The notes under the pieces are model-generated. The model did not search any database, was not told the origin of the DNA, and was given only the letters and a program-made list of their open reading frames with translations. Positions 10,084 to 64,000 of a DNA stretch of 64,000 bases are shown here, piece by piece. Origin of the DNA: Cyanidioschyzon merolae (lineage: Eukaryota); NCBI GenBank assembly GCA_000091205.1, contig AP006499.2, one strand, 5' to 3'. The position numbers and the translations under genes are program-made. Numbering within the stretch: position 1 is the first letter of the stretch; the number at the start of each line of letters is the position of its first letter.

Positions 10084-11078
10084 CAGGATTTTTGTCGATA
10101 CGCTGTCGTTGTACCAAGTCGTAGCGTCCACGACGCCTCGGGTAACTGCTCAACGGTCTGAGTGCGAAACGCAGCGACTTTTGCGCGCAAGGCGCTGCCA
10201 AAGAACCCAGTGCGAAGGTCGGGTTCGCCTTACGTAACCAATTAGCACGCTCACAACAGCGGTTCACAGTAAAACGCGTTCCGAAATAGAGTCCTCCGCG
10301 TTTCACGACTCGTCTGCGTTGGATGATGCGCTCAGTAGACGCTTGTTTACGAACTGCGTCTCATCATTGAGGTTACACGTTGGACAAGGAAAAGGTCGTC
10401 AGCGCGACGAAGTCAATGACCTCCTCAAAGTCTACCGGGTGTCTTGTTCTCTGGTGGACGCAAGTACGTCACACAACTTGACCAGTAAAGTACTGACCCT
10501 GGTACCGGTACCCGCGTCCAACGAACAGCGTAGTTGTTGTCGTCGTTGCCGCATTCGTACACAGCGGGCAGCGATCATCGACTGCAGATCGCGTCGCTTC
10601 GTGGCGAAGCCAGATGCCAAACGCTTGAAAAGCGGGCATTGTGTTTGCGTTTCAAGTGCCGATCTTGACAGTCTGGTGTCACTTGGGGAGCGTGGACTCG
10701 CTCGACTGTGCTCGATACAACAGCTGAACGCAGGAACCCTGCTGCCTGTGGAGACTGTGTGTGCGTCCACCACGAAACAGTCGGAGGCGTCCACTGCACC
10801 CGGGGGCACACCTGGAGCTCCCGGTGAATCGCTTCGTTCTTCTCGTTGCCAACGGTTTTACCGGTGATCTGGTTTCTACTGGGGCGTTCAGCGTAGTTTT
10901 CTGTAGAGCGTCGTGCTTCTCGGTGGTGCCTGGTGACGATTGCAGCGAGCTCGCGCCGGGGACGTTCCATAGTCTCTGGAGCGCACTGAGCGCCGCAGCC
11001 GACACGCTCCAGACCTGCTCCGGCAGTCCCGCAAAGATAACGTGCGACTTGTCGCCTTAAAATTTTCTCTGTGGCAAT

Positions 11079-12494: not shown

Positions 12495-13029
12495 ACGAAG
12501 GAAAAGCTATGGAAGAATTTGAGGTGTTCTCGGTGAAGCTGGTGCTTTCGGATGACCAATGCATGAGTGTGTGTGTGTTTGTTTTCGTAGAATGGTGCTC
12601 GTATGAGGGCAAGAGCAGCACCATGAACACGTTCCAGATGCAAGGCACGAACTCGGATCGCATGGACAATGCATCTGTATACTGCAGCATGATCATCTCG
12701 AAGTGGTAATCGAACGATGTTGACACGGTTGCAAACGCTAGAACGGCAACATCTCCTTTGCTTTTCTCGACGCACGTGCAGCGCCATGATGCCCATTGCG
12801 TATCTGACACCGCTTCCTCTGCTGCTTACTGTGCATCGTTTTCCGCACCATATGGACGACGCCGCTCGTAAGGCATTCGCGAGCGCCCGCGTAACTTGGA
12901 CGAGGGAATGCGTCCACCAAGCGCAAGCGCTCCCTACGACTCTGTTTAAATGCCGTTGCTTGGAATAACCGCACATGCCGACGAGGAATCGCGGCACTAG
13001 AGGCCCGTGTCGAAGCACGGTCTCGGTTT

Positions 13030-34200: not shown

Positions 34201-34769
34201 CCGACCTTGAAAGTCGCCTCCGCGAGTGTGTCGAAGGAGGTGGTCGCTATGCGCGTCTCTGTCGACTTGTTGAAAAGCGCGAAGCAGAGCTGACTCGCGC
34301 CCGCGAAACTCTGCGGCTGCTGGAGGAGCGTCTTGTCGCCGAAGGGCGCTCTGCAGAGTTCTGTGACCTCCATGCGAGTGCGCAGCATGAGGCCGAGCGC
34401 TTGAGCTTTGAGAAGGAGCTTGCTCGCTCCAAAGAAAAAAGCGACAAGATGCAGCAAGAACGACAACAGCTGTTACTCGAGAACAGCAAATTGCGTGACG
34501 TAGTCAAGCACAAGGACCGACAGCTTCTGAGTCTGCAGGCTAAGCTGAAGCACGCCGAGGCAACCATCTTGTCGCAGCGCGGCAATGCGAGTCTTCCTGA
34601 ACAGGGCACCGTCTCAGACATTTCCATGGGGGCAGGTGCCGCTCCTGCATGTGTAACTCAAAGTGCTCCTGGCGCTCAAGATTCCAATAACAAGGAGAAT
34701 TTGGGATGCGAACAGGATTCGGAACGTGCTGCTGCTCAGCTGTTCGGATCGCTCGACGACAACAAGTAG
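31242..34769 (+). CDS. Kinesin motor protein with N-terminal motor and ~800-aa coiled-coil tail (kinesin-7/CENP-E-like)
   Basis: GQTSSGKTHTM P-loop, SSRSH switch I and LVDLAGSE switch II. The motor region is similar to CENP-E (FAYGQTxSGKT...), followed by a long heptad-rich tail. The ATG at 31242 is confirmed. Confidence 0.85.
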   Translation: MSGVELPEAETRSVLSDAIQVAVRVRPILPKEAETRGAAETWRAVPHAGQVIRVGRLPTGAGGTTTCPTVFSYDFVFGKESTNVEVYEKVARPLVESALVGYNGTVFAYGQTSSGKTHTMWGSEADPGVMRRAVRDLFELARRTPQREFLIRVSYLEIYNETIRDLLHSNPAVTNVRVLEDSDGRICTDAREEIVVTAEQVCELLKNGEAKRMTGATDMNERSSRSHTILTLVIESRERAAEDSTSGDAEDSSSASDSAVRTATLTLVDLAGSERQKDAKSEGLRLKEGGYINKSLLTLGTVIHKLSEGGSAHVPYRDSKLTRMLQSSLGGNSRTAVICAITPAAAHAEETLSTLKFATRAKSVQNRAQQNEVLDDRALLKRYQQEIASLRAQLAKLQQGDLSKQGCPNDFVRALEQNAAEAERERERIRSQLEEAENRRRLYEEKLERLTRLILNSPAPAPKVRSRVSVSTASLSSPHSDTNENKDVASPGAFAYEPRTPPAAEPQLDQRLTRTFRTLRRRTLGGSVDGIGSDAQGLLNSPENHIVEQVRTLQRRVEALDVARWREQSASLKAVSYERERAAQLQQRLRSLESQMLRHTCAEVANEALHKAALAAVDVRLAQIQQLMQSERNRMQQLHCELEHVRQVCATKQSRLEILERELGEARREIDELRQRERAGFTQTQAKTFDHLRNRVADLEAKLRSQLALRQQVEASRGGVERELRKLERQNRALEKELAKLREQRERIEQAKLTVAQAEQLRNASEQAQRQVQAERDALQRQLNELENAHTRLLAERDTLLEYRERHQQALEQLECAQQRIADLEARSVRSADWEARCESLSGQLEDARQRIAALESQIETNAQELASLLDQATDAHLQLEAVRSQARASERLQEQVTAQVRAELNALAASHEKESAEWKRMRLDTETERDALRSQLADHKRSLEELRLECAKLESRAAKLLQETAKHIEEKHRLLETVHARDRRITDLESRLRECVEGGGRYARLCRLVEKREAELTRARETLRLLEERLVAEGRSAEFCDLHASAQHEAERLSFEKELARSKEKSDKMQQERQQLLLENSKLRDVVKHKDRQLLSLQAKLKHAEATILSQRGNASLPEQGTVSDISMGAGAAPACVTQSAPGAQDSNNKENLGCEQDSERAAAQLFGSLDDNK

Positions 34770-39099: not shown

Positions 39100-40884
39100 C
39101 TAGAATTTGGAGATATCTCTTCCGAGCACTCGAGTTTTCACAAAGTCTATCATCACTAGGAACCGCGATCGCCAGCTAAACAAATGCAATAGCGAGTAGC
39201 CATACCAAAGCCAGAACGCAACATTGCCATACAGCGGGTCCATAAAGGGAAATTGCAAGACCGAGACACTATTCCCAAGATAGGCGGCAGCTCCTAGGTT
39301 TCTCCACTCAAAAGGTGGATACAGGCCCGCTTCTAATTCATCAAAACCTGCCGGCCAACACCGAAATCGCTCATTCAAGAGTCGACCGAGGTAGCGACCC
39401 TGTTGGAAGGCAACTTGCGCGGTCGGTGGCAGTGCGGTGCTGTGTTCGTCGACCTTGACAAGCCACTTCTGGAACTGTTCCCGATTAATTGAGGACTGCC
39501 CTTCGTGGAAATCCGGCTCAATCATCGAAACAAATTCTGCAAGCTGTGGATACTCATCACGAACGATGCGAATAAAACGTAAAAACTCGTAGACATGAAT
39601 CCTCCCGTCGCCATCAATGTCAGCCAATTGAAAGAGCTTGTCCAGGTGGCTCTGCGTCGCAGCGCTCTGCAGGGTACTACAATCTCCGGCAGCGTAGAGT
39701 GCTCGATGCGGATCGCCAACCACTCCGAGGTGGTGGTTCACGACCAGCGCATAGCGATTCGACTGAGCCTGCGCTCCGAGACGTTCCGCTACACGTCGAA
39801 TGAGCGGATGCATCGCGAGACCCGCCGTCCAGATACAGACCCCGAACGCGAGCGTCTGTGCTTCCTGGGAAAACTTGTCCATCACCGTGAGCGCATCCGA
39901 GGTAACCTCAACTACTCGATGATTCAGCAGGAGCTGAATCCCATCGCGTCGAAACTTTTCAGTGGCGTATTCTGCGATTCGCTTCTCGAAGCCGTTCAGA
40001 ACCGTAGCACCGGACTGCACGATCGTTACGCAAACATCATCGAGGAGCGAGCGAGGGAAGAGCCTACGAGCGTCCTCGTGGAGAAAATCGTGCAACTCGG
40101 CTGCGATTTCACAACCCGATGGACCAGCTCCTACAACAACGAACTGAAGGAGGCGGTGCCGCTCTTCGGCGCTCGTGGACGGTTCGGCGGCTCCTTCGAG
40201 TGCGTCATTCAATGCGCTTCGTATGGCACGAGCATCCTCCGCGCTGCGAAGTGCGTGACAACAGCTGCGTACGGCGGGAAACCCACCGTCATTGGTGCCG
40301 GACCCCACAGCTAGCACTGCAACGTCGTACGGGACGGAAAAGCGCGCCCCGCCGTGCACCGCACTGCAGTGGACCTGTTTGGTGAGAGGGTCCACATCCT
40401 CGACGCGTGCATTGATGAAGGACCACTCGGTTGCGGGCACAGCTTGGCCGCTTTCCGTGAGCAGTTGCGGCCAGTGCCACCACCGCCGCTGGAGACGTGC
40501 CAGCAACTCCCGGGCCGGGACAACGATAGAGCGCAGCTCGACCGATCCAACACTCGCCGAGGGTAGCAGCGGCGTGTACACAAAGTGGTTCCGGTCCGAA
40601 ATCAATACGACATCGCAGAGGCGCGGATCTAGCGAGCGCAGCAACGCGTGGCTCGCCCAGCCGGTCCCGCACACGACCAGCCGAGGTCGGGCGCTGGGAC
40701 GCAACGACGGCGGCCCCGCAGGTTGCGGCGGGTTCAACACCTGAACCGACCGATACCCGAGCCACAGCGCCGTGCCAGCCCCAATGGTGTAGAGGCCTAG
40801 CCGCACGGCGTGCAGCATCCTCGTGAAACGCACCAAACGGGGTGTATTGGCGAGCGTTGCAGCAGCGCGATGAGACGGATGCAT
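39100..40884 (-). CDS. Type II NAD(P)H dehydrogenase (alternative NADH:quinone oxidoreductase, NDB-type) with EF-hand, mitochondrial
   Basis: Two dinucleotide-binding motifs (VVCGTGWASHALL and VVVGAGPSGCEIAAEL) and an EF-hand DIDGDGRIHVYEF. The track start at 40932 is TTG; in-frame ATGs lie at 40882-40884 and 40816-40818. The N-terminus looks like a presequence. Confidence 0.8.
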   Translation of the reverse strand: MHPSHRAAATLANTPRLVRFTRMLHAVRLGLYTIGAGTALWLGYRSVQVLNPPQPAGPPSLRPSARPRLVVCGTGWASHALLRSLDPRLCDVVLISDRNHFVYTPLLPSASVGSVELRSIVVPARELLARLQRRWWHWPQLLTESGQAVPATEWSFINARVEDVDPLTKQVHCSAVHGGARFSVPYDVAVLAVGSGTNDGGFPAVRSCCHALRSAEDARAIRSALNDALEGAAEPSTSAEERHRLLQFVVVGAGPSGCEIAAELHDFLHEDARRLFPRSLLDDVCVTIVQSGATVLNGFEKRIAEYATEKFRRDGIQLLLNHRVVEVTSDALTVMDKFSQEAQTLAFGVCIWTAGLAMHPLIRRVAERLGAQAQSNRYALVVNHHLGVVGDPHRALYAAGDCSTLQSAATQSHLDKLFQLADIDGDGRIHVYEFLRFIRIVRDEYPQLAEFVSMIEPDFHEGQSSINREQFQKWLVKVDEHSTALPPTAQVAFQQGRYLGRLLNERFRCWPAGFDELEAGLYPPFEWRNLGAAAYLGNSVSVLQFPFMDPLYGNVAFWLWYGYSLLHLFSWRSRFLVMIDFVKTRVLGRDISKF

Positions 40885-43124
40885 ATTCGAAGGCCTTTTC
40901 GTGGCGTTCGCGTACCGGCAACGTCGCTGCAACGATGTCTATAAACATACTATCATATACAGGTTTCCAGTGGTGTGAGCTTTCTGGCGCGCGACACGCA
41001 GGCGCGTGCCCCATGCCACCCCGGGGCACCGCGGGTAGCAATGCCCCTCAGGGTGCGGTGCGCCCGGAAGTTCTGTTCCGGTTTCTTTCATGATTCCGGA
41101 TTGACACAGCCGAAAAGACTGTACTGGATGCGTGATTGTTCCTTGAAAACAGGGAAACGCCTCCGGTCCCCGCGCAGAGGCTTTCACGGTCCATTAGCAC
41201 CAGGTCAGCGCATCATTCAGGAACTCGGGATGGAGGCGGCCCTGCTTGATTGCCCAGGGAACTGATTTCGTGAAGCTGGTCTCGATATATCACGCGGCTC
41301 TGGCTCAAGACTGAGGTTGTTCTCAGAACCGGGCTTTATATCTCGCCTCAATACGAACACGTGAATCGTTGGACGGAAGGGTTTCGAATACGCGCTGCGA
41401 AAAGGCATCCTGCGCGGCTGTTACCATACTCATGCACCAAGGCAGCCGCATACGCAACCTGTAGGTAGGTGCGTATTCCGCGCACGCTACTGGACGACGG
41501 TACGAGGCCAAGGACTGTAAGCTGCTGGGGCGCGCGCGCGCGCCTACGCGAATGAGAAGACGACGTCGAGGGGAGACGGCTCTGCGCGATGAGCGACCCA
41601 TGACCGAGGCCCTTGGCATATTTCGCACCAAAACTGAGACAACAGCGCCTGCCGGATACGCCTGCCTTGGTTCCGTATCAGATAAAAATTGAAAACGGAA
41701 TTGATCGTTTCATTCCTGTAAATCGATTCTATGTACCGAAAATGTTTAGTTCGACAACGTCCACATTCGAACTGCAGCGATTCAGGCTTACGGCATCATG
41801 CGTAGTATAGGGATTCGCGGTCGTCGAATTTGGGGTGGCTCCTCCGACTTTTTGCCGCTGGGATTCGTTTCGGTACCGGAATCAAGATGAATCGCAACGC
41901 ACGTCAACTATGCTTCGTAGAATGGCGGGTATCATGATCCAATTCATATGAATAAGCACCCAGGCTTCAGCTCTCCTTACGCGCAGCGGGCTCAACGCTC
42001 GTGTGCTTCGAGGCAGCCATCTTTCTCTTCCAGGGCAGCGTGTGTAGGCTCAGCGATTCGCGCTGCTAGATTGACGATAAAACGCAGTCTACGTCGTCAA
42101 TCTAGGACTTGTTTTCTGGTATGGATTTTTCTTCCTATACTAGTGTCATCATGAACAACATCACGCGCCACAGATCCTCTGTCGAATGGAACGGTGAGCG
42201 CCTGCTCGTGCAGCCAACAGCGTACCCCCCGATGGAATCGACCGGAACGAGCTCGTGATTGCAGGGCACGGCACTGGGCGCAGAAACCGAGCATGGCATC
42301 TATCAAAGCCTCATCTACCCGCCAAAAAAACATGTACCAAGCGATGAAGCAAGCTTTCTGGCGCCACATGGCGGAACGCATAAGATGGTTGTGGTTGACC
42401 TGCGGGAATCCTTGACCAAAACCGAGTGTCACAAAATGCGCATGGCGCACCCCGGGCAATACGCACAGGACATGCAAATGGCAAGCGAATCGCAACCACC
42501 GCCTGTGCATCAAATTCGTCCACAAGCTGCTAGAAGCGACGAAATCCGCACCCTCTACGCTGCTAGCAACATTCTTCGACTGTTGACAATGGAGCTTCAA
42601 GGAACAGGCAGTCTGGTTCATCGCAAGCCGAAAACAGAAGAGAGGAAAAGTATTCAGTCTCAGAAAAATTCCGCAAAAGACTGATGTTGATGGTAGCGGA
42701 AAACACCCAAACTGTAGTGTGGGTGTGTGGACGCCCCAGTTCGCATCGAAGATGCGTTCCATCGCTTCCCCACCACGGGGGGGCACGGAGCGCGCGCCCT
42801 TGCACCCGATCGCGACACGCTGAGGGCACGTTCAGGTCGAGACTGGATGACCTCTCGTGTCTCATTTTACGTGTGCAACGTCGAGGCTCGCGATCGCAAC
42901 AGTCACCATCAACGCCGCAGCGCTGCGCACGGATGAGAGGCGGCGCTCCCTCGCATTGTGCATCATTTTGCCAGCGCTGGCGTCTGTATGGTGGACGCTT
43001 ACGCTCTGGAATAGAACTCACGAGTACCTCTAACGGACCCAGGAGCTGGTGCGCCCGTCCAGAACTGTTCGACAGGTGAGTGGAACGAGTCCCTGGACGA
43101 GGGAGCAGCAGCCTTCTTGTGCTT

Positions 43125-47784: not shown

Positions 47785-48954
47785 TCAGAGTTTGCTCTGC
47801 ATCTTCACAGAGAGCATCTGGCGGACATCGTACGGGGCAAACGCATCCCGAACGACGAGATCTCTCCGAATATCGGAAACTTTCTGGCACCCGCACAGCT
47901 GCATGGCGAGCTTAAATTCATCTTTCAGTAAACTGAGTAGCCGGTAGACACCCTCTTCGCCATCAACTGCTAGGCCCCAGACAATGGGCCGTCCGATGAG
48001 GACAGCATCCGCGCCCAGTGCGAGCGCCTTCACCACATCGGTTCCGCGGCGCACACCAGAATCGATGAAAACTGGGATGCGACCTCGAACACTCTGCGCG
48101 ACTTCCTCGAGGCAGTCGATGGTGGCGGTTACACCGTCCAGCTGTCGGGCCCCGTGGTTCGATATCCAGATTCCGTCTGCGCCGTACTGCAGCGCACGCT
48201 GGGCGTCTTCTGCAGTGACGACCCCCTTGAGCAGAATTGGCAGCCTCGTGATGCTCTTAAGCCAAGCGATATCGTTCCAGTTCAGCGATGCATCAATCAG
48301 CGATGCGACGTAGGATGCCAGGCCAGAAGCGCCTGCTCCGCCCTTCACTTGCGCAAAATCTTTCATATCGGCAAAATTCGCGAGAGACAAGTGCGGCGGC
48401 AACTGGAACTGGTTCCTGATATCCGCCTCACGCCGACCAAGTTGCGGCGTATCCACGGTGAGGGCTATTGCTCGGAAACCTGCGCGCTCAGCACGCCGCA
48501 CAAGGCGCTCCGTGATCGCCCGATCCTTGTACACGTACAGCTGGAAGAACTTGGGCAGACCAGGCACGTGCGCCGCAACGTCCTCAAGCGAGGTCGTTGC
48601 CCAGGATGACAGACCCATCACCGTTCCGATACGTGCAACGGCTCGGGCGGTTGCCAGCTCGCCTTCAGGGTGCGCCATGCGTTGCATGGCGGTCGGCGCC
48701 ACCATCAGCGGGAACGACAAGTCGATGCCCATAACCTGCTTCGTGATATCGACCCGAGAAACGTCTATAAGCACACGCGGACGGAAGCGTAGACGTCGAA
48801 ACGCTTCTTCGTTGTCGCGCAGCGTTTGCTCGTCGTCTGCACCGCTCGCGTAGTAGCCATAGACCATAGCGGGGAGCCGGGCCTTGGCGAACAGGTGATA
48901 TTCAGCCAAATTCAGCGGTTGTGTCGCCGGATTCACTGCTGGCTTCTCAACCAT
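47785..48954 (-). CDS. Glycolate oxidase / (S)-2-hydroxy-acid oxidase (FMN-dependent)
   Basis: [11 protein letters not shown] active-site motif and FQLYVYKDR...TVDTP. The N-terminus MVEKPAVNP...[28 protein letters not shown] aligns with plant GOX starts. The track ORF extends 66 codons further upstream, to 49152, and is probably spurious. Confidence 0.85.
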
Positions 48955-49154
48955 CTCTACTTTGTTTCGAATACTGGTAAAACAATGTCTTTTTTGAGTT
49001 TGCGCTGAATTACCGTGGTAGATACGGCTCTGCGAACGCACCTCTACTGCGCAGTACGGGTACACAGCATCCGTAAGCAGCGCTTGCGGCAACGCATGGA
49101 CGCCAGCGTCGATCCCGAGACTAGGCGCGCGCGCCCGGGCACGCATCCACACAC

Positions 49155-54244: not shown

Positions 54245-55269
54245 CTCGTCGTACTGTCGTCTTTCTTGCGGCCTTCGACGTAGAGCCTCCCCCTTTCGGT
54301 TCTTTTTCTCTTCCTTTTCTTCTGGACTCGGTAATGTTTATTGTTTTTTTTTCTGGCAGCCAGCCACACTGAGCCTCCAGGATCGTCGACTTGCTTTTTC
54401 ATAGCCTTCATTTTTTAGTTTTTTTGAAAAAGAACGCTCTTTGAACGCTTCTGTCATATACTGCGAAAAAACACTTTACTAGACTTGTTTGAGGTTTGAG
54501 GCACAAATGAAATGAAAAACTGCTTTTTTGTGAAACTCCAACGGAAATCCAACTTGTTCCGGTAGTACACGCTTCTGATCAGAATCGCTTTTCTCTTCAA
54601 CGGCGACATGCGCGTCTTGTCAGTTGACTGCCCGATCTCCCTGATGCGCTCACCGAGCGGGATTCTTTTTTCATTGACAAGACGTTTACTTAGGCCAGCG
54701 TTCTCCGACTGTGCGCTTTTTCTTTTCTTTCTTTTTTTATTTGGTTTTCTGCGCGCGTTGAAGTATCCATCAAACACCCTACTCCCAAGTCACATTACCT
54801 AAACTTCTTCTCGGATTTTCTGGTCGTTTCATGCGTTCTATCACACACCTAATGCCTGCCCTAGTCATCCGCAATAGCGTCTTTACCTTCGGTACAGTTG
54901 CATCACGGAGACAGAACGGCGTTGCCGTACCACAGAGGGCGTCCGTTCGAACTGGGGTACGGATCATACGTGGATCGCGGCGAACGGGGTTGTGACCGGG
55001 TTCTTTGTGCGTCGCTCGAATGTGCGTTTCCTCCAATGCCCTGTAGCTGCTGGTTCAGAAGCATTCGGTTCTGGTCTTTGAATTCAGCTCCGACTTTGGA
55101 TTACATGAGAGAGCGTCAATTTTCGTGTAGGTCATACCTATTTTCAGCTTTGGTGCGGACGCGTGCACGAACGTCACGCTTTCCAACGACTACATGGAGC
55201 CCCGAGCCGTTGGGAACGATCCCAACACGACGAGCTCCGCCGCTCGAGAATACATCGGAAACGATGGTG

Positions 55270-55500
55270 CACTGCATCCACATGGAACACGAGCCGCAGT
55301 CGAAGCGTGTCCCTGCTCTGTGCCCAAGAGTGCACTGATCTAGGGCAACTCCAATATTCAATGTACCGTTTTCAAATGCACTGCATCCACATGGAACACG
55401 AGCCGCAGTCGAAGCGTGTCCCTGCTCTGTGCCCAAGAGTGCACTGATCTAGGGCAACTCCAATATTCAATGTACCGTTTTCAAATGCACTGCAAGCGCC
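55270..55500. repeat. 109-bp tandem duplication (2.1 copies)
   Basis: 'cactgcatccacatggaacacgagccgcagtcgaagcgtgtccctgctctgtgcccaagagtgcactgatctagggcaactccaatattcaatgtaccgttttcaaatg' appears at 55270 and 55379, with a partial third start at 55488. It lies ~330 bp upstream of the lipoyl synthase ATG. Confidence 0.85.
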
Positions 55501-55833
55501 AGAGTACTGCAGCGCAGGTGCGACGATGGCGAACCGGACACCAAATGAAACCTTGGACGCACTTGCGCTCCAGCGGCACACACCCGTTCTATGCGAGCTG
55601 TCTACTGCGCTATTGGGAGATACAGTGCTGTTCGGGGCTCAGCAAAGTCAAGCAATCTTTTACGACCAGGAGCCGAACTGTTAGTGGCGTCTGGGCTCTA
55701 GGGGGCGAACAGTTGAACCGGCTCGAGCCGCTCGTACCAGCGAGGTCAAAGACTTGGGGGTGTCGTGGTGGACACCTCGCCCGACGAGCCGCTACCGCTT
55801 AGGTCTGGTTGCGTCGAAGCGGCACGTCCGCTG

Positions 55834-57129
55834 ATGGAAGCACCATCGAACGTGGTTCGAGTCGGCCCCGACCGTCAGTCTGCCCAGGTAGCGCTGAGCG
55901 AAACGCTGAACGCAGAGCCTCGAGAGGCGTGCCTCGGCTTTCTCGCCCAAACCTGGCGATATCGCACAGCGACAGCTTCGAGATCCACCTGGTTCGTGTC
56001 TTCTCGATTTCGTAATGCCCTGCCACAGCCAAGCCGGACTGCACCGAATCGGGGCTTGAAGCGGCGTACTGTGCCAGTAGCGCGTGCCTCGCCAAGCGAG
56101 CGCTCTCCTGCACACGCGGACAGTGGTGGTACCGCGTACCCTCGGGTGGGAGCGCCACAACCAGCGAATCGCCCAAACTGGTTTCGAGTGCCTGCTGTTG
56201 GAGCACTCCGTCCGGACTCACGCTTTCTTCGTCTGCGGGAGAGTCTCCGAGCGAGAAAACTGTCCACAGTTTGCGAGGAGGCCCAATGCCCCAATATCGG
56301 GGAATGTTGGAACGGGGAGCACGCCACCGCTACCATCATGCTGCTCGGAGATACTTGTACTCGAGGGTGCCGATTCTGTGCTGTGAAAACTGCAGCTCGA
56401 CCAGGACCACCAGATCCTGAGGAGCCCATGAATGTGGCTGCAGAGGTTGCGAGTTGGGATATTGACTACGTTGTTCTCACAAGCGTCGATCGTGATGATT
56501 TACCGGATGGGGGCGCAGCGCACTTTGCGCGCACGGTCCAGTATTTGAAGCAGTTGCGTCCACAGTCTACTAGGGTTTCTTCTGATCAGGATGCACAGCA
56601 GATGCCTCCGACGAAGCGGCCACTCTTCGTGGAGTGTCTCGTTTCCGACTTTGCCGGCAACACTGATGCCGTTCGCTGTCTGGCAACCTCTGGACTCGAT
56701 GTGTATGCACATAATCTTGAGACTGTGGAGCGCTTGCAGCAATACGTTCGGGATCCGCGAGCAAACTATGCACAATCCCTCTTCGTGCTGCGGCTAGCGA
56801 AGGAGTTCAATCCGCAACTGGTGACCAAGTCATCTTTGATGCTAGGTCTCGGTGAAACGCCACAGGAAGTCCTGCAAGCTATGCGGGACTTGCGTGATCA
56901 CCAAGTTGATGTTGTGACGTTTGGGCAGTACCTTCGTCCGACTCCGCATCACCTGTCCGTTGTCGAATGGATTCATCCGGACCAGTTTGCCACGTACAGA
57001 AAACTCGGGGAGGAGATGGGTTTTCTCTACGTGGCCTCAGGGCCCCTGGTGCGCAGCAGCTACCGAGCTGGTGAATACATGATGACGCGGCTCGTCGAGC
57101 AACGTCAGCAGTTCGCGACTCCGACCTGA
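55834..57129 (+). CDS. Lipoyl synthase (radical-SAM LipA/LIAS), mitochondrial
   Basis: [13 protein letters not shown] (auxiliary cluster) and [13 protein letters not shown] (radical-SAM CxxxCxxC). The track start at 55765 is GTG; the first in-frame ATG is at 55834. The N-terminus is presequence-like. Confidence 0.85.
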
Positions 57130-58135
57130 TTTGCATTCATGTCAGTAGTTTATCTGGATGACGAGCAAGCTTTGCGACTGAGGTCTATGAACGGCGTTCG
57201 CACGCTTGCAGACAATGGCAACGAGTCTGTGCTTGGCACGTTCGCGGCACAGCACATGAGCGCGAGTATGACGCACGGTTTGCGAACGAGAGTGCTTCGA
57301 TTTGCGCGATTCGCTTGGAACGCCACGTTCACAACTGCTACAAGAAAACGGGGATTGCTTCTCTGGTCTCGTGCCGATACTCCAAGTGGATGTATCTGGC
57401 AAACCTAGCGACTTGCAGGCGGTGAATACTTGCTTTCGCGGGGCGCGCTACGCAAACCGCCACCAGCTCTTGAACCGAATTGCCGTGGCTCTGTATCTTT
57501 TCATGATGACGCTCTGGATGGTGTCCTTGGCGACGTGTCGTTCATATATGCAGCGTTGCCGTGTTCTCGTGAAAAGCTTCATACATTCGACACATGCGTG
57601 CATGTCGCGGGACTCGCGATGTCCAGCAATGACGCACAGGTATGCGTCGAATGAAGCACCACGCAAGGGTAATGCTGCGTTGAACGATCAATTGCTGTGC
57701 TCCATTCCCCGGGATTTATTGTCTGTGATGGGTCCTTGTACCGTTCCTGGAAATCTTGTGCCCGTGCATCGCGCTGCCGCCTGCAGAACAACAAGCGCAT
57801 GCGAGTCGGCAGTGCTCCTGGGCAGACAGCAACCGTTCGTGAACGGATCTAAAACTTGGCTTTGTGCTGATATCTTTGGGGATTGCTGCTCCAAGAGGCC
57901 CGCGTGCATCGCATTCGTATCCGTCATGCACACCTGGTATGCCTGTCGATCATTCGTATCCTTCATACATGGATACTACGCGTGTACGGTACACGGGGTA
58001 GCCCGCGACTCTCGAGAAACGATCTCTCCAAAAGATCGCGAACGGTTTCATTGGAAGGACGCCAGACCTATGACGACCACGATACATCCAGTCATCTGAA
58101 ACACAGGGCGTGCCTTTATGCTGTCGAAAAAAGGG

Positions 58136-59317
58136 TTAACCTGCGGCGCGGTCACATGTCAGATGCATGGCTACACTGGTTTGGACCTCTCTTCTCCAAT
58201 CAGAGAAATGCCTTCCACGGTACTTGGCTGCAGTACGAAAGACAGCCTCACAGGTTATGCGATTGAGCACAATTGTGAACAGAAAGAGAGCCAGATCGGG
58301 CTGGCGGAGCGCCAGAAGCATTGCCAGCACTGGACGGATTGTTCGGGTGTTCCAGAAGCCGCCCCATGTGAGGATAAACCACAGCACCCGATGGAACCAG
58401 GTGTACTGCACCATCATTCGAACAGACACTGTCGGCATTTTCTGGTAAAACATATAACCCATGATACCGCGCTCCTCTTCTATTTGGACCAAGCGCGGCA
58501 TATGGTTCAGCTCGAACGGCGGCTTGTAATGGAAAGCCAATGCACCATCAGCAGCCCAGGGAAGTCGAACGTGGCGAAGCCTGCCCTGTGTCGCATGGCG
58601 CAACCGCTCGCCGCACTCCAGATCTTCCCAACCGTACAGGCAAAAGTCCTCGTCGAAGCCCCCGCATTCGCGGAAGAGCGCTCTCGAGACACTCGCATTG
58701 GAGGTACAAAAAAATGCCCGAGAAGCGTCAAAAAGCGGATGGAATCGCAGTCTCCTCTCATGAGCATCGAGCGTATGGACGTGGAGAACGGGTCCAACGG
58801 CGATGCTGGGTACCTGGGGTGCAGCGGCGTGGGCGCCCCAGTGGGCCCGCAGGAAACCCGTTGCCACCATGACGTCGCTGTCGACAAAGACGAGCACCTC
58901 ACCATTTGCGACGCTCACACCGTGGTTTCTAGCACGTGCAGGTCCCGAGTTACGTTCCAGTTGCAGCAGCCGTACGTGCGGATAGCGCTGCTCGACCTGC
59001 TGGGCAGTTCGTAGCCAGTCCGCCGTGCCGTCCGCACTAGCGTCGTCAATCACCAGTATTTCGTACGGAGAACCTGGGTCTTCCTGTTTTTCGAGACAGT
59101 CCAGGCAGACTTCAAGCACGGGACGCCTGTTGTACGTCGGCACGATGACCGAAAGCGAAGCGCTTACGCTGCAGCGTCGCTTCCTCTTTGCGACAGCTTG
59201 CGGCAGGCGCACGACTTGCCCCGCGGTGAACAGGCGACACGTTCCACGCTCATGGATAACAGCGCGGGATAAGGTTTGGAGTCTTCGAGACTCAGAAACG
59301 GCACAGTTTGCGTACAT
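58136..59317 (-). CDS. Family-2 glycosyltransferase (GT2) with C-terminal transmembrane segments
   Basis: VIVPTYNRRPVLEVCLDCL...YEILVIDDASADGT...VFVDSDV (DxD). The track start at 59326 is GTG; the ATG is at 59315-59317. Confidence 0.65.
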   Translation of the reverse strand: MYANCAVSESRRLQTLSRAVIHERGTCRLFTAGQVVRLPQAVAKRKRRCSVSASLSVIVPTYNRRPVLEVCLDCLEKQEDPGSPYEILVIDDASADGTADWLRTAQQVEQRYPHVRLLQLERNSGPARARNHGVSVANGEVLVFVDSDVMVATGFLRAHWGAHAAAPQVPSIAVGPVLHVHTLDAHERRLRFHPLFDASRAFFCTSNASVSRALFRECGGFDEDFCLYGWEDLECGERLRHATQGRLRHVRLPWAADGALAFHYKPPFELNHMPRLVQIEEERGIMGYMFYQKMPTVSVRMMVQYTWFHRVLWFILTWGGFWNTRTIRPVLAMLLALRQPDLALFLFTIVLNRITCEAVFRTAAKYRGRHFSDWRREVQTSVAMHLTCDRAAG

Positions 59318-61322
59318 AAGCAGCACGACAGCGGCGTCGCTCGAAGCACGCCGCCCGAGTTGTGTACCACTTCACGTCGCAAGTTTCTGAAGCCACGGGA
59401 TCGTGCCCTTTGATTCTCTCAGAGTTGACGTCTCACTTCGGACTCGTGCCTTTGGCGGAGCCCGCTTCCACCGGCACAGACGATAAGCCTCTCTCTGAAA
59501 AGCGTTTGTTGTGACGGTTCCTTACGGAAGCGATGATACCAGTGTTCGCTGCTGGCGTTGCGCTTGTCGATCCGGCATCGGCCGGGCAAGAGGCGTTCAA
59601 GTCACGTGTGCAGCGGCGTTCACAGACGCTCGACATACGAGCCTTCCACGTGTATGTGCTTTCGCCTCCTTGAGGAATGGTACCCGACTATATGAGCAAA
59701 TGGGAAATCGGCAGATGTCCTGTTCAGGCTTTTGTCCAGAAACGTCAAGGCTTGGAAATGTAGGGGTGTCCGTTTTCTTGGCTTCATGCCCTGAAATATG
59801 GGCGCTACACTCTTGTTGGACGCAAATCGAACGGGCGCAGTTCGTGAACTCGGGCGTACAGACATACAATGCAGGTCTCTTCCAACTGAGGTGACCATAG
59901 GCATTTGCGGGCTTTATCTGCGACTGCTACCTGTTACTGGGCCTTATCACTGGTGTTCATGAACCCGTTCTCGTCGATAACTTCACCTCCGTTCTGAGCA
60001 GACCATGAATGTTGATGACAACTTCAGCGTTCCGAGTTCGCTTTTTCCGGCTGTTGTGGACGTCTTCTACGCAAAAGACGCAAGCCGCAATCTACGCATT
60101 GCTTCCCATTTTCATCTTCTATGGATGCAGCATCGTTGTGCCTTGCAAAGTTGTAACCTTTGACTGGGGTCGGGTGTTCCTGTATGTCTTCCACACCTCA
60201 GCCTGTTCCGATAGTCACCCTTGGCGCGTGCACGCTTGCTTCATTGCTTGGTACCAGCTCCTGACAGATACAGAGGGCTCTCCTCGATGCCTTGCTCTGT
60301 TTCCGCGCCTGGTGCCGTACCCTTCGATCACGGGCTTCTTCTGGACGATCCGTTCGGCATGTACGGTGCCAGCTGCATGTGCAAGCCGAGGATGCTTCAT
60401 TCGATGAAGGTTTCACGGAACCCGATAATGTCCTCGATGAAACAACCACCAGTAGGGAATTTCAGATTAGAGAAGACATAGGGAAATTTCGATCAGTTTT
60501 CGTCTTTTTCAGACAAAGCTGACGTGTGCATGCCGCCCGAGGCAATCGTTATGATGTTTGCATTCCGAGTCCAGGACCCTTTCCATGGACACAAAAGACG
60601 AAAGAGGCCCTGGGAGCGTATCCCGTGAGAGGCAGCATACTGTTGTGGAGTGCCATTCGGTCGATGGCTGCCAATAGACAAGGATTTGTGTCTGAATAGA
60701 ATCGATGACTTAAGGTGGCAAGTTCATTGCACTGTTATGCATGAACTCGTGTGGCATTCTTCATGGGGCGGCATCGAATATTCTTCTCCTCGTCTATTAA
60801 GAAGCGCTACTCGCTGCGCTCAAGAGTTGCTTTACAACGGAAAGACCCGAAACTTGAAGAATGCGTGATTATAAAAGTTGTGCATCAAAGAAAACGCTCG
60901 AAATACACTTGCAGACCGTTGAGGGCAATATCTCGTAATAATCTGTGACGAGTTCATGCGACGGAAAGGTGCAGGTTTTAAGCTCAGCTCCTCAATCTCG
61001 TGATCAGAGCGCGCACATCATGGAACATTTACAAACTTCTCTGTCCAAGAGAGTTCTCGGAAAAATCATTGTCATGGGCATCGGGATTGCTGTCGTGACC
61101 TGGGACCCGCTCAAAGCCCTCCATAGTCGGTGTCTGCAAACCCGAAGCCGCGCATCGACAAATCCCAACTTGTGCCACAGCCGTATTTGCCAAGTCACAT
61201 CTATGCGTTTGTGGCGATGACCAGCTCCACATTCGCCCGTGTCTCCCGCTCGAATAAAGCAGATGCCGAGGCGCTGCACTTGCCACGCCAGTAGCGCGAG
61301 CATTCATCCGTTAGCATCGACG

Positions 61323-62390
61323 TCATGATCGTGGTATCGAAGCTGTTGCTGTTCTGATACGCTTGGCGCGAGGATCCATGACAGCCATCCAGAGCGGGGG
61401 CACCAGCGCCAGAAGCATCATCGCCGGAAGTCCCGCCGGGTGCTGCGGCCATTCCTCTGGTCGGTTTTCCAGCCGGGAGTACCAGCGTGCAGCATGTAAA
61501 TGGTGATCACTGTGATACTCAAGCTTGAAAAGGAGGCAGCCACTGAGCCAGTGGTGATTATTCCACGAGTGTTGGGCAGTGACCGGCTCCTCAGGCGACA
61601 TGCGTTGTAATCCATAATGCTCGACATAGTTCACGAGCTCTAGCTGGAAAACCCCGAATGCGGAACCAATCAGATAAACCATTAAACCATGGACGTACCT
61701 CGATCGTCGGCTAGTTTCGATCATGGTTTCAGTTGCTGGCCACGGTAGTGTACACGCAAAAGCGAATAGCTGAAGAATGAAACCATACGCCAGCGTGTCC
61801 AGCAAAATGCGCTCACGCGCATCGGGCCAGGTCCGTGGAGACATCACAACTCCCCGAACTGCTCGAGGCAGGAAGCGGTAGAACGACTCCCCAGGTCGTG
61901 CGGTGGCTGGATCATGCGCAAGTCCTACATTCTTATGATGCCCACGGTTATGCTCTACGGCGTACGGCCCATACCCGGCCATAATCAGCAGACATCGCGC
62001 TAACAAACGGTACATGACGTGCATCTTGTGGTTCAGTTCGTGTGCGACATTGATACCGAGAGCCATGACAATGCCCAGTGAGAGCGCCCAAAGGAACGTC
62101 TGCAACGGTGCCCAGGCTGGGCTGATCCTCGCTACCCGCCAGCTTAGCAGTAGAATTACGAGCGTTTGCACAGGGAGCCACAGAGTAAGTGGTAGGCGGA
62201 ATAGTGCAGTTTCCGCTGAGGGTTTCCATGAGTTGCGCTCTGGCAAGTCAAGCAACGGTACCAGCACGTAAACGGTGAATGGCAAGAACCACGGCCAGTT
62301 GCGCCAAATAGCCCAAGCTTCCAGTCCAGCAAGCAGGTAAATCGCCCAAAACCTCCACCAAGGTGCGCGCAATACGCTCATAAGTTCCAT
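61323..62390 (-). CDS. AlkB-type integral-membrane alkane 1-monooxygenase / fatty-acid hydroxylase-superfamily di-iron enzyme
   Basis: All four AlkB-diagnostic motifs are present: HELNHK (His box 1), EHNRGHH (box 2), NYVEHYGL and LEYHSDHHLHA (box 3). Hydrophobic N-terminal helices. The ATG at 62388-62390 is confirmed. Confidence 0.7.
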   Translation of the reverse strand: MELMSVLRAPWWRFWAIYLLAGLEAWAIWRNWPWFLPFTVYVLVPLLDLPERNSWKPSAETALFRLPLTLWLPVQTLVILLLSWRVARISPAWAPLQTFLWALSLGIVMALGINVAHELNHKMHVMYRLLARCLLIMAGYGPYAVEHNRGHHKNVGLAHDPATARPGESFYRFLPRAVRGVVMSPRTWPDARERILLDTLAYGFILQLFAFACTLPWPATETMIETSRRSRYVHGLMVYLIGSAFGVFQLELVNYVEHYGLQRMSPEEPVTAQHSWNNHHWLSGCLLFKLEYHSDHHLHAARWYSRLENRPEEWPQHPAGLPAMMLLALVPPLWMAVMDPRAKRIRTATASIPRS

Positions 62391-62606
62391 GCAGTTGGGA
62401 ATCTTCGCAAACGTGGATGATGATGATGATGATGACGACGACGAGGATGCTTTGTCACACTATATACACTGTGGCGTCGTGCTCTGTTGCCACGCGATGA
62501 GCAGAACCGATTTTCCCACACCGAGCTCGTCGTCGTCGCCCTTCGCAGTGTTGCTAAGCGTTCTATCCAAGACGACGGCGTATCCCAGCTTTGCTAGCGA
62601 GAACAC

Positions 62607-62640
62607 ACACACACCAGACAGACAGACAGACAGACAGACA
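62607..62640. repeat. (CAGA)n microsatellite
   Basis: cagacagacagacagacagacagaca. Confidence 0.9.
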
Positions 62641-64000
62641 AGTCGCCTTGAACAAAACGTCTAGAATTTGCGGGAGATTGCGAGACGCCCGGCGTGAGGC
62701 GCACCCGCTGCCTCCAGTGCGCCGAGTACCCCGACGTGAACTGGAGCACCGCGTGTATCTCACGCAAGAAGCGATGCAGCCAGCGTCTATGCTCATGACG
62801 AAGCGCTTTCGGAGCACTTGGCAAAGCATCGACAGCAGGATCATGAAACATATCAGGGCAAGCGCTCGTAGAAACGGACTTGTCGTACAGGATACGAGTC
62901 TTCCGAGGCACAGGCCAGGGCACCGCGCATCCCGCTATCGCCAGAGTGTGCTCGAGACAGCGCCCTGGATACCATGGCAATATCGCTGGAGCCTCAAGTC
63001 GACTTTGCTATCCAGAATCGTTATCTGGAGCGTGTAGTCATCCGATGAATGCGTACAAAATGGATGAAATGTCTCCGGGTCTGTCCATTCAGCGTCTGTG
63101 ATCCTCCATGCCGTCGCCCACATGAGGTGACGAAGACGCTGAGTCAGCAGGGGCGGCACGCTCGCCATTGCTGCGAGATGTCTCGCACAAAAGCCGCGAT
63201 GATGGAAGCGTTGCGAGCATATCCAGCGCTAGTCGGTATGCATACGAGCGAAGCGAACGCCAGCTGCAGCTGGGCGTCAGGGATTTGCCTCATCTACCGA
63301 GCGTCTCTTGCAGGGCGGAGCACTTGTTGTGGCCCAGGAATGGGCACTGATCGCAAGGGTGACGCGGTTCATGTTCCGCATGCCCGGCAAGTTCTACGCA
63401 CCGTGACACAGATATATGGGGAAGCGCTTGCGGGATCCACCATTCGCCTGGCTAGTCTGCCGACGAGCGACACCAGCGTTTCGGTTATCGATTACGGTTG
63501 CTGACACTCCGGACGCGCGGGGATCAGGTACGAGTCGTTGATGCTGCACCATAAAAGTGCGTACGACACCAGTATGTGATTCGTGGAGCGTCCAGTCTGC
63601 ATGGTTCTCTCCAGCGACATGCTTCCTTGCGTCTGCGTACTTGTCACAGTGCATACGATTGCCCGTGACGGAATGCTATCGGCCCCGAGGATGCTCCAAG
63701 CCCGTGTCCGATGAACACGGAGCACTGAATTGCAGATTCTGTTCTTGGGATTCGATTTCTTTCCGAATTTTATGATGTACATCTTTGACATTCAAAGTGC
63801 AGCAATACCGGCTGACGGACCCTCGTGTGGATTCAGGATTCTTGGACATCTGTTGGGCGTGACGCTTTCAACGTTTTGTCTGCCACTGGAACTCGTCACG
63901 TCATTGGAATCAAGATGATTCGGTGCGCTTCCGAACCAGAATTTCAAAAAAACACGTACTCGAATCCGATTCGCAAGTCGAAAGCGTCCACTATTCGCCT

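What the first reader, a model, noticed from the sequence alone, without database searches (positions are those of the whole stretch)
61323..62390. Bacterial-type AlkB alkane hydroxylase homolog in a eukaryotic nuclear context
The ORF carries all four AlkB-diagnostic histidine motifs (HELxHK, EHxxGHH, NYxEHYGL, LQxHSDHH-like). This family is overwhelmingly bacterial. Here it has host-like GC content and flanking microsatellites, so it looks integrated rather than contaminant. That suggests an old horizontal acquisition, or a lineage-specific hydrocarbon or fatty-acid terminal hydroxylase.
Basis: partly seen in the sequence, partly recalled or inferred. Interest (0 to 1): 0.55.

Follow-up and report, generated by a model that had tools for sequence, protein, structure and literature searches.

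The report
Bacterial-type alkane hydroxylase in red alga
The ORF is a real, intact AlkB-type membrane alkane hydroxylase gene on a nuclear chromosome of the hot-spring red alga Cyanidioschyzon merolae; GenBank already annotates it that way, it looks like an old bacterial-type acquisition, and nobody has tested its substrate or electron donor.

Summary
Window 61323-62390 (-) is a 355-aa ORF with HELNHK, EHNRGHH, NYVEHYGL and LEYHSDHH. It is 100% identical to C. merolae 10D BAM82273.1, annotated 'similar to alkane 1-monooxygenase'.

- **Family:** the only solved structures it matches are the AlkB entries 8f6t and 8sbb (E about 1e-46; model pLDDT 93.5, TM 0.80).
- **Catalytic residues:** all nine His and the Glu iron ligands and four vestibule leucines are kept. 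The chain-length gate is Val40, the long-chain type.
- **Not a contaminant:** GC is host-like, neighbours are eukaryotic, and AlkB-GT2-radical SAM-FMN_dh synteny recurs in Cyanidiococcus and a third Cyanidiales genome. Orthologues are 63-69% identical, with dN/dS about 0.15.
- **Isolation:** an exhaustive search drops from 491 to 186 bits. The best bacterial matches (31-40%) span many phyla, with no cyanobacteria.
- **Phylogeny:** neighbour-joining bootstraps give Cyanidiales monophyly 100 and no supported sister. The clade never joins a second, intron-bearing eukaryotic AlkB clade (brown algae, marine protists).
- **Divergence:** 18 of 77 near-invariant AlkB columns differ, including R292Y.
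- **Partner:** no redox partner lies nearby.

Verdict: a known kind of enzyme, already annotated, probably from old horizontal transfer. The donor, substrate and electron donor are unresolved. Interest is modest.

The parts
61323..62390 (-). Complete intronless CDS (355 aa plus stop) of an AlkB-family integral-membrane diiron hydroxylase. It equals C. merolae 10D BAM82273.1 / XP_005538309.1 / UniProt M1VKZ1.
62025..62042 (-). His box A, HELNHK (residues 117-122). H117 and H121 align to iron ligands His137 and His141 of F. thermophila AlkB.
   Evidence: ligand list from PMC10113152
61935..61955 (-). His box B, EHNRGHH (residues 146-152). H147, H151 and H152 align to ligands His167, His171 and His172.
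61608..61631 (-). NYVEHYGL 'HYG' motif (residues 254-261). E257 and H258 align to ligands Glu271 and His272.
61500..61523 (-). His box C, LEYHSDHH (residues 290-297). H293, H296 and H297 align to ligands His311, His314 and His315. Y292 replaces an Arg present in 333 of 357 aligned AlkBs. L290 aligns to vestibule residue L318.
62271..62273 (-). Codon for Val40, at the chain-length gate position (W62 of 8sbb FtAlkB, I54 of 8f6t, W55 of P. putida GPo1 AlkB). A small residue here is the long-chain type.
   Evidence: rule from PMC10110569
62416..62445 (.). GAC/GAT trinucleotide microsatellite about 30 bp upstream of the ATG, in the putative 5' leader.
   Evidence: read
62615..62640 (.). (CAGA)6.5 microsatellite upstream of the gene. 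Environmental contigs of the same species break here.
58136..59326 (-). Context only: a GT2 glycosyltransferase immediately downstream on the same strand. The AlkB-GT2 order is conserved in three Cyanidiales genomes. The GT2 has its own cyanobacterial affinity and is also present in Galdieria.

Best explanation
This is a functional nuclear gene of Cyanidioschyzon merolae for an AlkB-family integral-membrane, non-heme diiron monooxygenase.

Shown:
- The sequence and the predicted fold are AlkB.
- The complete metal site is kept: H117, H121, H147, H151, H152, E257, H258, H293, H296 and H297.
- The four leucines that line the substrate vestibule are kept (L111, L250, L287, L290), including the two that position the alkane end at the irons.
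- The gate residue is small (V40).
- The gene is fixed in the chromosome and has been kept under purifying selection in at least three Cyanidioschyzon-lineage genomes.

Inferred mechanism:
- A long (C12 or longer) linear alkane or alkyl chain partitions from the bilayer into the hydrophobic vestibule.
- Its terminal methyl is held next to the two irons.
- O2 is activated with two electrons from a soluble redox protein.
- The terminal C-H is hydroxylated to a primary alcohol.

Inferred origin: the gene came by an old horizontal transfer from a bacterial-type source into the Cyanidioschyzon/Cyanidiococcus lineage, independently of the AlkB clade of brown algae and marine protists. It then diverged strongly.

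The physiological substrate and the electron donor are unknown. There is no fused or neighbouring rubredoxin, and only 2 of the 6 arginines that dock rubredoxin in F. thermophila AlkB are kept.
For: Family:
- Pfam FA_desaturase 5e-23.
- The only solved-structure sequence matches are AlkB 8f6t and 8sbb, at E 3e-46 and 6e-46.
- The AlphaFold model from a 130-sequence alignment has pLDDT 93.5 and pTM 0.92. Foldseek gives TM 0.80 and 0.77 to 8f6t and 8sbb and nothing else below E 1e-3.

Catalytic residues:
- Ligand mapping is, against the ligand list of PMC10113152.
- Vestibule and gate mapping is, against PMC10110569.

Integration and constraint:
- 100% identity to C. merolae 10D on a 1.23-Mb record.
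- Host-like GC and GC3.
- The same AlkB-GT2-radical SAM-FMN_dh order in a 185-kb Cyanidiales metagenome contig and in Cyanidiococcus yangmingshanensis, where a Zip transporter and ribosomal protein P0 lie upstream.
- Orthologues are 63-69% identical. dN/dS is about 0.15 for the one pair not saturated at synonymous sites.

Origin:
- An exhaustive HMMER search of 1.84 billion representatives drops from 491 bits (a Cyanidiales orthologue) to 186 bits.
- No red-algal protein outside this lineage is named among the listed AlkB hits. Galdieria proteomes are in the same database, since they appear for the GT2 neighbour.
- The best 80 loci from GTDB species genomes are 31-40% identical, spread over many phyla, and include no cyanobacteria.
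- Cyanidiales monophyly is 100/100. The clade never groups with the brown-algal clade: 0/100, and 0/60 at each of two gamma settings.
Against: - No biochemical or expression evidence was obtainable. The environmental contigs are genomic, with no poly-A.
- 18 of 77 columns that are at least 85% conserved in other AlkBs differ here, including H142P/S, F143Y, T157L, R292Y, L317H and Y321L. Substrate, partner or even chemistry may therefore have changed.
- Only R128 and R149 of the six rubredoxin-docking arginines are kept, although those positions also vary among bacteria.
- No redox partner lies in the window.
- The trees are neighbour-joining only. The placement of this long branch is unresolved, with the best sister at 18-44%. 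The direction and source of transfer are inferred from distribution, not from a supported topology.
- Ancient presence followed by many losses cannot be formally excluded.
- NCBIfam gave no hit.
Confidence: 0.6

Rival explanations
1. Neofunctionalised AlkB-fold enzyme. The protein keeps the diiron site but no longer works on free alkanes with rubredoxin. It oxidises another membrane lipid, such as a fatty acyl or alkyl chain of a glycerolipid, a fatty alcohol or an isoprenoid tail, using a eukaryotic or plastid donor such as ferredoxin or cytochrome b5.
For: - Lineage-specific replacements at positions nearly invariant in other AlkBs: R292Y next to His box C, T157L, H142P/S, Y321L and L317H.
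- Loss of 4 of the 6 AlkG-docking arginines.
- No rubredoxin fused or nearby.
- An isolated long branch.
Against: - The residues that contact the alkane terminus are all kept (L111, L250, L287, L290), and the gate residue is a common bacterial state, Val.
- The AlkB-specific NYxEHYGL motif is intact.
- Docking arginines also vary among bona fide bacterial AlkBs.
Confidence: 0.2
2. Ancient eukaryotic or endosymbiotic gene rather than a lineage-specific transfer. AlkB was in the red-algal or plastid ancestor, passed to ochrophytes with the red plastid, and was lost from Galdieria and all other red algae.
For: - AlkB homologues are genuine nuclear genes in brown algae: the Ectocarpus gene has about 10 exons over 6.9 kb between TLC and ATG7 genes.
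- They also occur in MMETSP and Tara eukaryotic transcripts.
- The neighbouring GT2 is of cyanobacterial type.
Against: - Cyanidiales never group with the brown-algal clade (0/100; 0/60 at each of two gamma settings) and share none of its N-terminal extension.
- No cyanobacterial AlkB is among the best 80 genome hits.
- The exhaustive search found no Galdieria or other red-algal orthologue in the score gap.
- Brown-algal proteins are closer to bacterial AlkBs (45-49%) than to C. merolae (37%).
Confidence: 0.1
3. Transfer through, or shared with, giant viruses of algae. The Cyanidiales gene belongs to a divergent AlkB-like subgroup that is also carried by nucleocytoplasmic large DNA viruses.
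For: - AlkB-like ORFs occur on IMG/VR giant-virus MAG contigs. L091 is flanked by a DUF2738 gene, which I recall is a phycodnavirus-type family, and by other virus-like content.
- The pair L091+L101 is the single most frequent sister of Cyanidiales: 36/100 as an exact clade and 44/100 as sister, and 27-30% with gamma-corrected distances.
- Rare states are shared: T157L in L091, a non-Arg aromatic or His residue at 292, and the loop deletion at 266.
Against: - Support is below 50% and both are long branches, so long-branch attraction is likely.
- The viral proteins have a degenerate His box B: QHLFHHH and IHLKIHH.
- By raw identity, metagenomic and bacterial sequences are closer to C. merolae, at about 52% over the core.
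- The shared states also occur scattered in other sequences.
Confidence: 0.1
4. Bacterial contamination, or a decaying pseudogene relic.
For: The family is predominantly bacterial. The gene's codon-usage correlation with its neighbours is the lowest in the window (0.49).
Against: - Embedded between eukaryotic genes on a 1.23-Mb chromosome record.
- Synteny in three genomes.
- 99% identical copies in independent hot-spring metagenomes.
- Intact ORFs with all catalytic residues, and dN/dS about 0.15.
Confidence: 0.01

Closest known systems
Bacterial alkane 1-monooxygenase AlkB (Fontimonas thermophila AlkB, PDB 8f6t and 8sbb; P. putida GPo1 AlkB)
   Same: - The four His boxes, nine His plus Glu ligands and the NYxEHYGL motif.
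- The predicted transmembrane fold (TM 0.77-0.80).
- The vestibule leucines.
- A small gate residue, as in long-chain AlkBs.

   Different: - Only 30-31% identity to the solved structures and at most about 45% to any other AlkB.
- 18 of 77 near-invariant columns are changed, including R292Y, T157L, H142P/S and Y321L.
- No fused or adjacent rubredoxin or reductase.
- 4 of 6 AlkG-docking arginines are absent.
- Encoded in a eukaryotic nucleus.
Brown-algal and marine-protist AlkB clade (for example Ectocarpus siliculosus CBJ30233.1 'alkane 1-monooxygenase')
   Same: Eukaryotic nuclear AlkB homologues with the same His motifs. They too are annotated but, as far as I could find, unstudied.
   Different: - A separate clade (bootstrap 62) that never joins Cyanidiales.
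- 430-500 aa, with a conserved N-terminal extension carrying extra hydrophobic segments.
- Intron-rich.
- Closer to bacterial AlkBs (45-49%) than the Cyanidiales proteins are.

Horizontally acquired genes exclusive to the Cyanidioschyzon lineage (Rossoni et al. 2019, eLife, PMC6629376)
   Same: The same profile as their 23 Cyanidioschyzon-only orthogroups:
- single exon;
- about 65% identity between lineage members (here 63-69%);
- 31-70% identity to prokaryotic hits (here 31-45%).

   Different: The main text of that paper does not name this gene: no 'alkane', 'desaturase' or 'hydroxylase'. Its supplements were not available. Eukaryotic homologues in brown algae may have kept it out of their strict set; this is my inference.
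Other FA_desaturase-superfamily enzymes (membrane desaturases, Scs7p-type hydroxylases, xylene monooxygenase XylM, CrtR-type carotene hydroxylase)
   Same: A His-rich diiron site in a membrane protein, and the Pfam PF00487 match.
   Different: No solved desaturase or hydroxylase reached E 0.01 by sequence or 1e-3 by fold. The NYxEHYGL motif is, from my own knowledge of the AlkB literature, specific to AlkB relative to XylM and the desaturases.

Membership tests
AlkB alkane 1-monooxygenase family | Nine histidines plus one glutamate that coordinate the diiron centre, carried by three His boxes and the HYG motif | tested here: met
   H117, H121, H147, H151, H152, E257, H258, H293, H296 and H297 align one-to-one with FtAlkB His137, 141, 167, 171, 172, Glu271 and His272, 311, 314, 315.
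AlkB alkane 1-monooxygenase family | AlkB-specific NYxEHYG(L/M) motif | tested here: met
   NYVEHYGL at 254-261, the commonest variant among 426 collected homologues. That this motif separates AlkB from XylM and the desaturases is from my own knowledge.
AlkB alkane 1-monooxygenase family | AlkB membrane architecture (six transmembrane helices with the cytosolic diiron domain) | tested here: met
   The predicted structure has pLDDT 93.5 and pTM 0.92. Foldseek gives TM 0.80 to 8f6t and 0.77 to 8sbb, with the next hit at E 1e-2. This is a prediction, not an experimental structure.
AlkB alkane 1-monooxygenase family | Hydrophobic substrate vestibule with conserved leucines, two of which position the alkane terminus, and a gate residue that sets chain length | tested here: met
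   L141, L274, L315 and L318 of 8sbb align to L111, L250, L287 and L290. W62 aligns to V40, the small, long-chain type.
AlkB alkane 1-monooxygenase family | Dedicated electron chain: rubredoxin AlkG and rubredoxin reductase AlkT (separate, fused or clustered) | tested here: inconclusive
   There is no rubredoxin domain in the protein and no partner among window ORFs. 2 of 6 docking arginines are kept. The rest of the C. merolae genome could not be searched with these tools.
AlkB alkane 1-monooxygenase family | Terminal hydroxylation of n-alkanes | not testable with these tools
   This needs heterologous expression or a knockout with GC-MS.
AlkB alkane 1-monooxygenase family | Near-invariant second-shell residues of canonical AlkBs (H142, F143, T157, R292, L317 and Y321, in C. 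merolae numbering). These are not formally defining. | tested here: not met
   Cyanidiales have P/S, Y, L, Y, H and L at these positions, where 312-348 of 357 aligned AlkBs share the canonical residue.
Horizontally acquired gene in Cyanidiales | Stable integration in the host chromosome and vertical inheritance within the lineage | tested here: met
   Conserved synteny in three genomes, eukaryotic neighbours, host-like GC and dN/dS about 0.15.
Horizontally acquired gene in Cyanidiales | Absence from sister lineages (Galdieria, other Rhodophyta) | tested here: met
   Nothing scores between 491 and 186 bits in 1.84 billion representatives. Galdieria proteins are in the searched collection. A very divergent copy below the listed hits cannot be excluded.
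Horizontally acquired gene in Cyanidiales | Supported nesting within a prokaryotic donor clade | tested here: inconclusive
   Neighbour-joining with 100 bootstraps gives a best sister at 18% without viral sequences and 36-44% with them. GTDB hits are flat across phyla. No maximum-likelihood software was available.

The most novel reading that the evidence does not exclude
The Cyanidioschyzon-lineage AlkB is an active eukaryotic alkane omega-hydroxylase that has been rewired to a non-rubredoxin donor. It turns over the alga's own C15-C17 hydrocarbons, made by its fatty acid photodecarboxylase homologue (UniProt M1VK13, cited in bioRxiv 10.1101/640474). That would close a hydrocarbon cycle inside a single cell. 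The independent AlkB clade in brown algae and marine protists, lineages I recall also have this photoenzyme, would do the same. The gene may have reached eukaryotes through giant viruses.
Probability: 0.12. Interest if true: 0.65.

Novelty: already known. Interest (0 to 1): 0.33.

Why it matters
AlkB is the main bacterial enzyme for aerobic alkane degradation. Eukaryotes are generally thought to use P450s for this step. A conserved, selected AlkB in a genetically tractable red alga would offer a direct way to ask whether algae consume hydrocarbons, including the ones they make themselves. So would the separate intron-bearing clade in brown algae and marine protists. It would also show which electron donor a eukaryotic AlkB uses. 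As it stands, the gene is an annotated but unstudied member of a well-known family. The value here is a cleaner description and a testable lead, not a discovery.

Tried and rejected
- **Single-sequence AlphaFold run:** useless (pLDDT 45). It was repeated with an alignment.
- **Foldseek against afdb50:** not available.
- **NCBIfam:** no hit for AlkB.
- **Literature:** Those aimed at this gene or at algal or eukaryotic AlkB found no paper on it. The guessed locus-tag prefix CMQ44 found nothing relevant.
- **Rossoni 2019:** the main text lacks the gene and the supplements are not held.
- **AlkB and the adjacent GT2 as a co-transferred bacterial operon fragment:** rejected. The GT2 has its own cyanobacterial affinity and occurs in Galdieria without a detected AlkB.
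- **Poly-A or transcript evidence in the short contigs carrying the gene:** they are genomic and break at the microsatellite.
- **dN/dS from 99%-identical environmental variants:** only 0-2 differences, so uninformative. dS against C. merolae is saturated.
- **Rare shared character states as a way to find a sister lineage:** no sequence shares more than 4-5 of 20-22 signature states, and the states are homoplastic.
- **Donor inference from GTDB genomes:** a flat signal across phyla.
- **Small ORFs flanking the gene:** no Pfam domains, so no hidden rubredoxin or ferredoxin.
Full report
**What is there**

The window holds an ATG-to-stop ORF of 355 codons at exactly 61323..62390 on the minus strand. 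Its translation carries four motifs:
- HELNHK at residues 117-122
- EHNRGHH at 146-152
- NYVEHYGL at 254-261
- LEYHSDHH at 290-297

Pfam assigns it to FA_desaturase (5e-23). NCBIfam has no matching model. Against all PDB sequences the only matches are two alkane 1-monooxygenase entries, 8f6t and 8sbb, both listed by Foldseek as Fontimonas thermophila AlkB. They score E 3e-46 and 6e-46 over residues 32-344, with every motif aligned.

**Where the window comes from**

The protein is 100% identical to BAM82273.1 / XP_005538309.1 / UniProt M1VKZ1, 'similar to alkane 1-monooxygenase [Cyanidioschyzon merolae strain 10D]', on a 1,232,258-bp record. The downstream GT2 glycosyltransferase is likewise 100% identical to a C. 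merolae 10D protein on the same record. Other ORFs in the window include a kinesin, an EF-hand NDH2-type dehydrogenase, an FMN-dependent dehydrogenase and a radical-SAM protein.

The context is therefore a red-algal nuclear chromosome. From my own knowledge, this genome is finished and almost intron-free, which explains the uninterrupted ORF.

**Integrated gene or contaminant**

The evidence points to an integrated gene.
- GC is 0.55 and GC3 is 0.58, inside the ranges of eleven other ORFs in the window.
- The gene order AlkB, GT2, radical SAM, then FMN_dh recurs in a 185-kb contig of a second Cyanidiales genome from a hot-spring metagenome. It also recurs in Cyanidiococcus yangmingshanensis, where a Zip transporter and ribosomal protein P0 lie upstream.
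- The three orthologues are 63-69% identical. Synonymous sites are saturated, and the least diverged pair gives dN/dS of about 0.15.
- Copies about 99% identical at the DNA level, and encoding the identical protein, occur in independent environmental assemblies.

Contamination and pseudogene decay are excluded.

**Is the catalytic machinery intact**

I mapped the protein onto F. thermophila AlkB.
- All nine histidine ligands and the glutamate are present: H117, H121, H147, H151, H152, E257, H258, H293, H296 and H297 (ligand list from PMC10113152).
- The vestibule leucines L141, L274, L315 and L318 of the 8sbb structure correspond to L111, L250, L287 and L290 (PMC10110569). L274 and L318 are the two described as positioning the alkane terminus.
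- The chain-length gate (W62 in 8sbb, I54 in 8f6t, W55 in P. putida GPo1) is Val40. In characterised AlkBs a small residue there goes with substrates of C12 or longer.
- A single-sequence AlphaFold run failed (pLDDT 45). With a 130-sequence alignment the model reached pLDDT 93.5 and pTM 0.92.
- That model matched 8f6t at TM 0.80 and 8sbb at TM 0.77, with nothing else below E 1e-3.

On this basis the protein works like an AlkB. The steps from 'intact site' to 'hydroxylates long-chain alkanes in vivo' are inference.

**How it differs from canonical AlkBs**

- 18 of 77 alignment columns that are at least 85% conserved in other AlkBs differ in the Cyanidiales. The replacements include H142 to P/S, F143 to Y, T157 to L, R292 to Y (LQRHSDHH becomes LEYHSDHH), L317 to H and Y321 to L. 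At these positions 312-348 of 357 aligned sequences share the canonical residue.
- Of the six arginines that form the rubredoxin-docking surface of FtAlkB, only R128 and R149 are kept. Those positions also vary among bacterial AlkBs.
- There is no rubredoxin domain, no N-terminal targeting extension, and no redox-partner gene among the surrounding ORFs.

The electron donor and the membrane location are therefore open.

**Origin**

- An exhaustive HMMER search of 1.84 billion representatives gives a Cyanidiales orthologue at 491 bits and then nothing until 186 bits.
- No red-algal protein outside this lineage is named among the listed AlkB hits. Galdieria proteomes are in the searched collection, because they appear for the neighbouring GT2.
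- The best 80 loci from 185,579 bacterial and archaeal species genomes are only 31-40% identical. They are scattered over Gammaproteobacteria, Alphaproteobacteria, Bacteroidota, Actinomycetota, Myxococcota, Leptospira and others. None is a cyanobacterium.
- Mean identity to other AlkBs (0.38) lies inside the range seen among bacterial AlkBs (mean 0.42, 5th percentile 0.35). The nearest neighbour (0.43-0.45) is further away than for 95% of the other sequences.
- In neighbour-joining trees of 349 sequences and 342 columns with 100 bootstraps, Cyanidiales are monophyletic (100). No sister exceeds 18%.

**Other eukaryotic and viral AlkBs**

A second eukaryotic AlkB clade exists (bootstrap 62). Its members with known sources are:
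- brown algae: Ectocarpus, Pylaiella, Nemacystus and Ascophyllum (Undaria, 60% identical to the Ectocarpus protein, did not enter the tree);
- MMETSP and Tara eukaryotic transcripts;
- a dinoflagellate transcriptome.

These proteins are 430-500 aa with a conserved hydrophobic N-terminal extension. The Ectocarpus gene has about 10 exons over 6.9 kb between TLC and ATG7 genes. Cyanidiales never joined this clade: 0/100, and 0/60 at each of two gamma settings. The two eukaryotic lineages therefore look independent.

A scan of IMG/VR found AlkB-like genes on giant-virus MAG contigs, with virus-like neighbouring genes. One viral pair, L091 and L101, is the most frequent sister of Cyanidiales. The support is 36-44%, falling to 27-30% with gamma-corrected distances. 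Both are long branches, the viral pair has a degenerate His box B, and its raw identity to C. merolae is lower than that of bacterial sequences. I record this as a lead, not a result.

The most economical reading is an old acquisition of a bacterial-type alkB by the Cyanidioschyzon/Cyanidiococcus lineage, followed by strong divergence. The numbers match the profile that Rossoni et al. report for their 23 Cyanidioschyzon-only horizontally transferred orthogroups: about 65% identity within the lineage and 31-70% to prokaryotes. Their main text does not mention this gene.

**The neighbouring GT2**

I tested whether AlkB and the adjacent GT2 came in together as an operon fragment. They did not. 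The GT2's closest non-red-algal relatives are uniformly cyanobacterial (Synechococcus, Prochlorococcaceae, Cyanobium; 42-46% identity), and it is present in Galdieria. It is probably of endosymbiotic origin, and the adjacency is ordinary conserved synteny.

**Function in the cell**

This part is speculative. C. merolae has a fatty acid photodecarboxylase homologue (M1VK13), listed among the enzymes synthesised in bioRxiv 10.1101/640474. The alga therefore plausibly makes C15-C17 hydrocarbons, and a long-chain AlkB could turn them over. Nothing here tests that.

**Novelty and score**

Ten full-text searches were run. Those aimed at this gene or at algal or eukaryotic AlkB found no paper that discusses it.

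The family, fold and chemistry are well known. What is unusual is the host, the lineage-specific substitutions and the missing partner. I rate it 'already known', with modest interest (0.33).

My probabilities:
- About 0.85 that it is a functional AlkB-fold diiron oxygenase.
- About 0.65 that its origin is horizontal transfer into this lineage.
- Low confidence for any specific substrate.

Noticed in passing
window 58136-59326 (-): GT2 glycosyltransferase directly downstream of AlkB. Apart from red algae (including Galdieria), its best relatives are all cyanobacterial proteins of about 310 aa (Synechococcus, Prochlorococcaceae, Cyanobium) at 42-46% identity. It is probably an endosymbiont-derived gene of unknown substrate.
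   Followed up: partly
L007 (Ectocarpus siliculosus FN649751.1) 6001-12920, and proteins P0154, P0157, P0090, P0159, P0185, P0189, P0202: A second eukaryotic AlkB clade in brown algae, MMETSP/Tara transcripts and a dinoflagellate transcriptome. The proteins are 430-500 aa with a conserved N-terminal extension holding extra hydrophobic segments. The Ectocarpus gene has about 10 exons. The clade never groups with the Cyanidiales proteins in the trees.
   Followed up: partly
L089, L090, L098 (IMG/VR contigs of 98-720 kb, GC 0.21-0.29); L091 and L101 (GVMAG contigs): AlkB-like genes on giant-virus contigs. L089, L090 and L098 form a clade with bootstrap 100. L091 and L101 form a pair with bootstrap 94, have a degenerate His box B, and are the most frequent but unsupported sister of Cyanidiales AlkB. 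L091 is flanked by DUF2738, 2OG-Fe(II) oxygenase, glycosyltransferase and DHQ-synthase-like genes.
   Followed up: partly
window 61152-61266 (3' of the AlkB stop codon): Environmental C. merolae-like contigs L001 and L002 align as if this 115-bp stretch were tandemly duplicated relative to strain 10D.
   Followed up: no
window 55268-55494: A perfect 109-bp tandem repeat (2.1 copies, 100% identity) in the intergenic region upstream of the radical-SAM ORF.
   Followed up: no
window 55765-57129 (+), 47785-49152 (-), 39100-40932 (-), 31242-34769 (+): A radical-SAM protein, an FMN-dependent dehydrogenase (glycolate-oxidase-like; from memory possibly CMQ436C), an NDH2-type dehydrogenase with EF-hands, and a kinesin. 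The first two are syntenic with AlkB in the other Cyanidiales.
   Followed up: partly
structure model m92b74cffb649 against PDB 8xks_K and 8xqw_M: After the AlkB structures, the next Foldseek hits (probability 1.0, TM 0.41-0.47) are a membrane subunit of the Chlamydomonas Ycf2/Orf2971-FtsHi chloroplast import motor. This suggests a desaturase-like fold in that complex.
   Followed up: no
window 62389-62664 (+) and 58118-59014 (+): Spurious ORFs. One is a poly-Asp ORF created by the GAT/GAC microsatellite. The other is a 298-aa ORF antisense to the GT2 gene.
   Followed up: no
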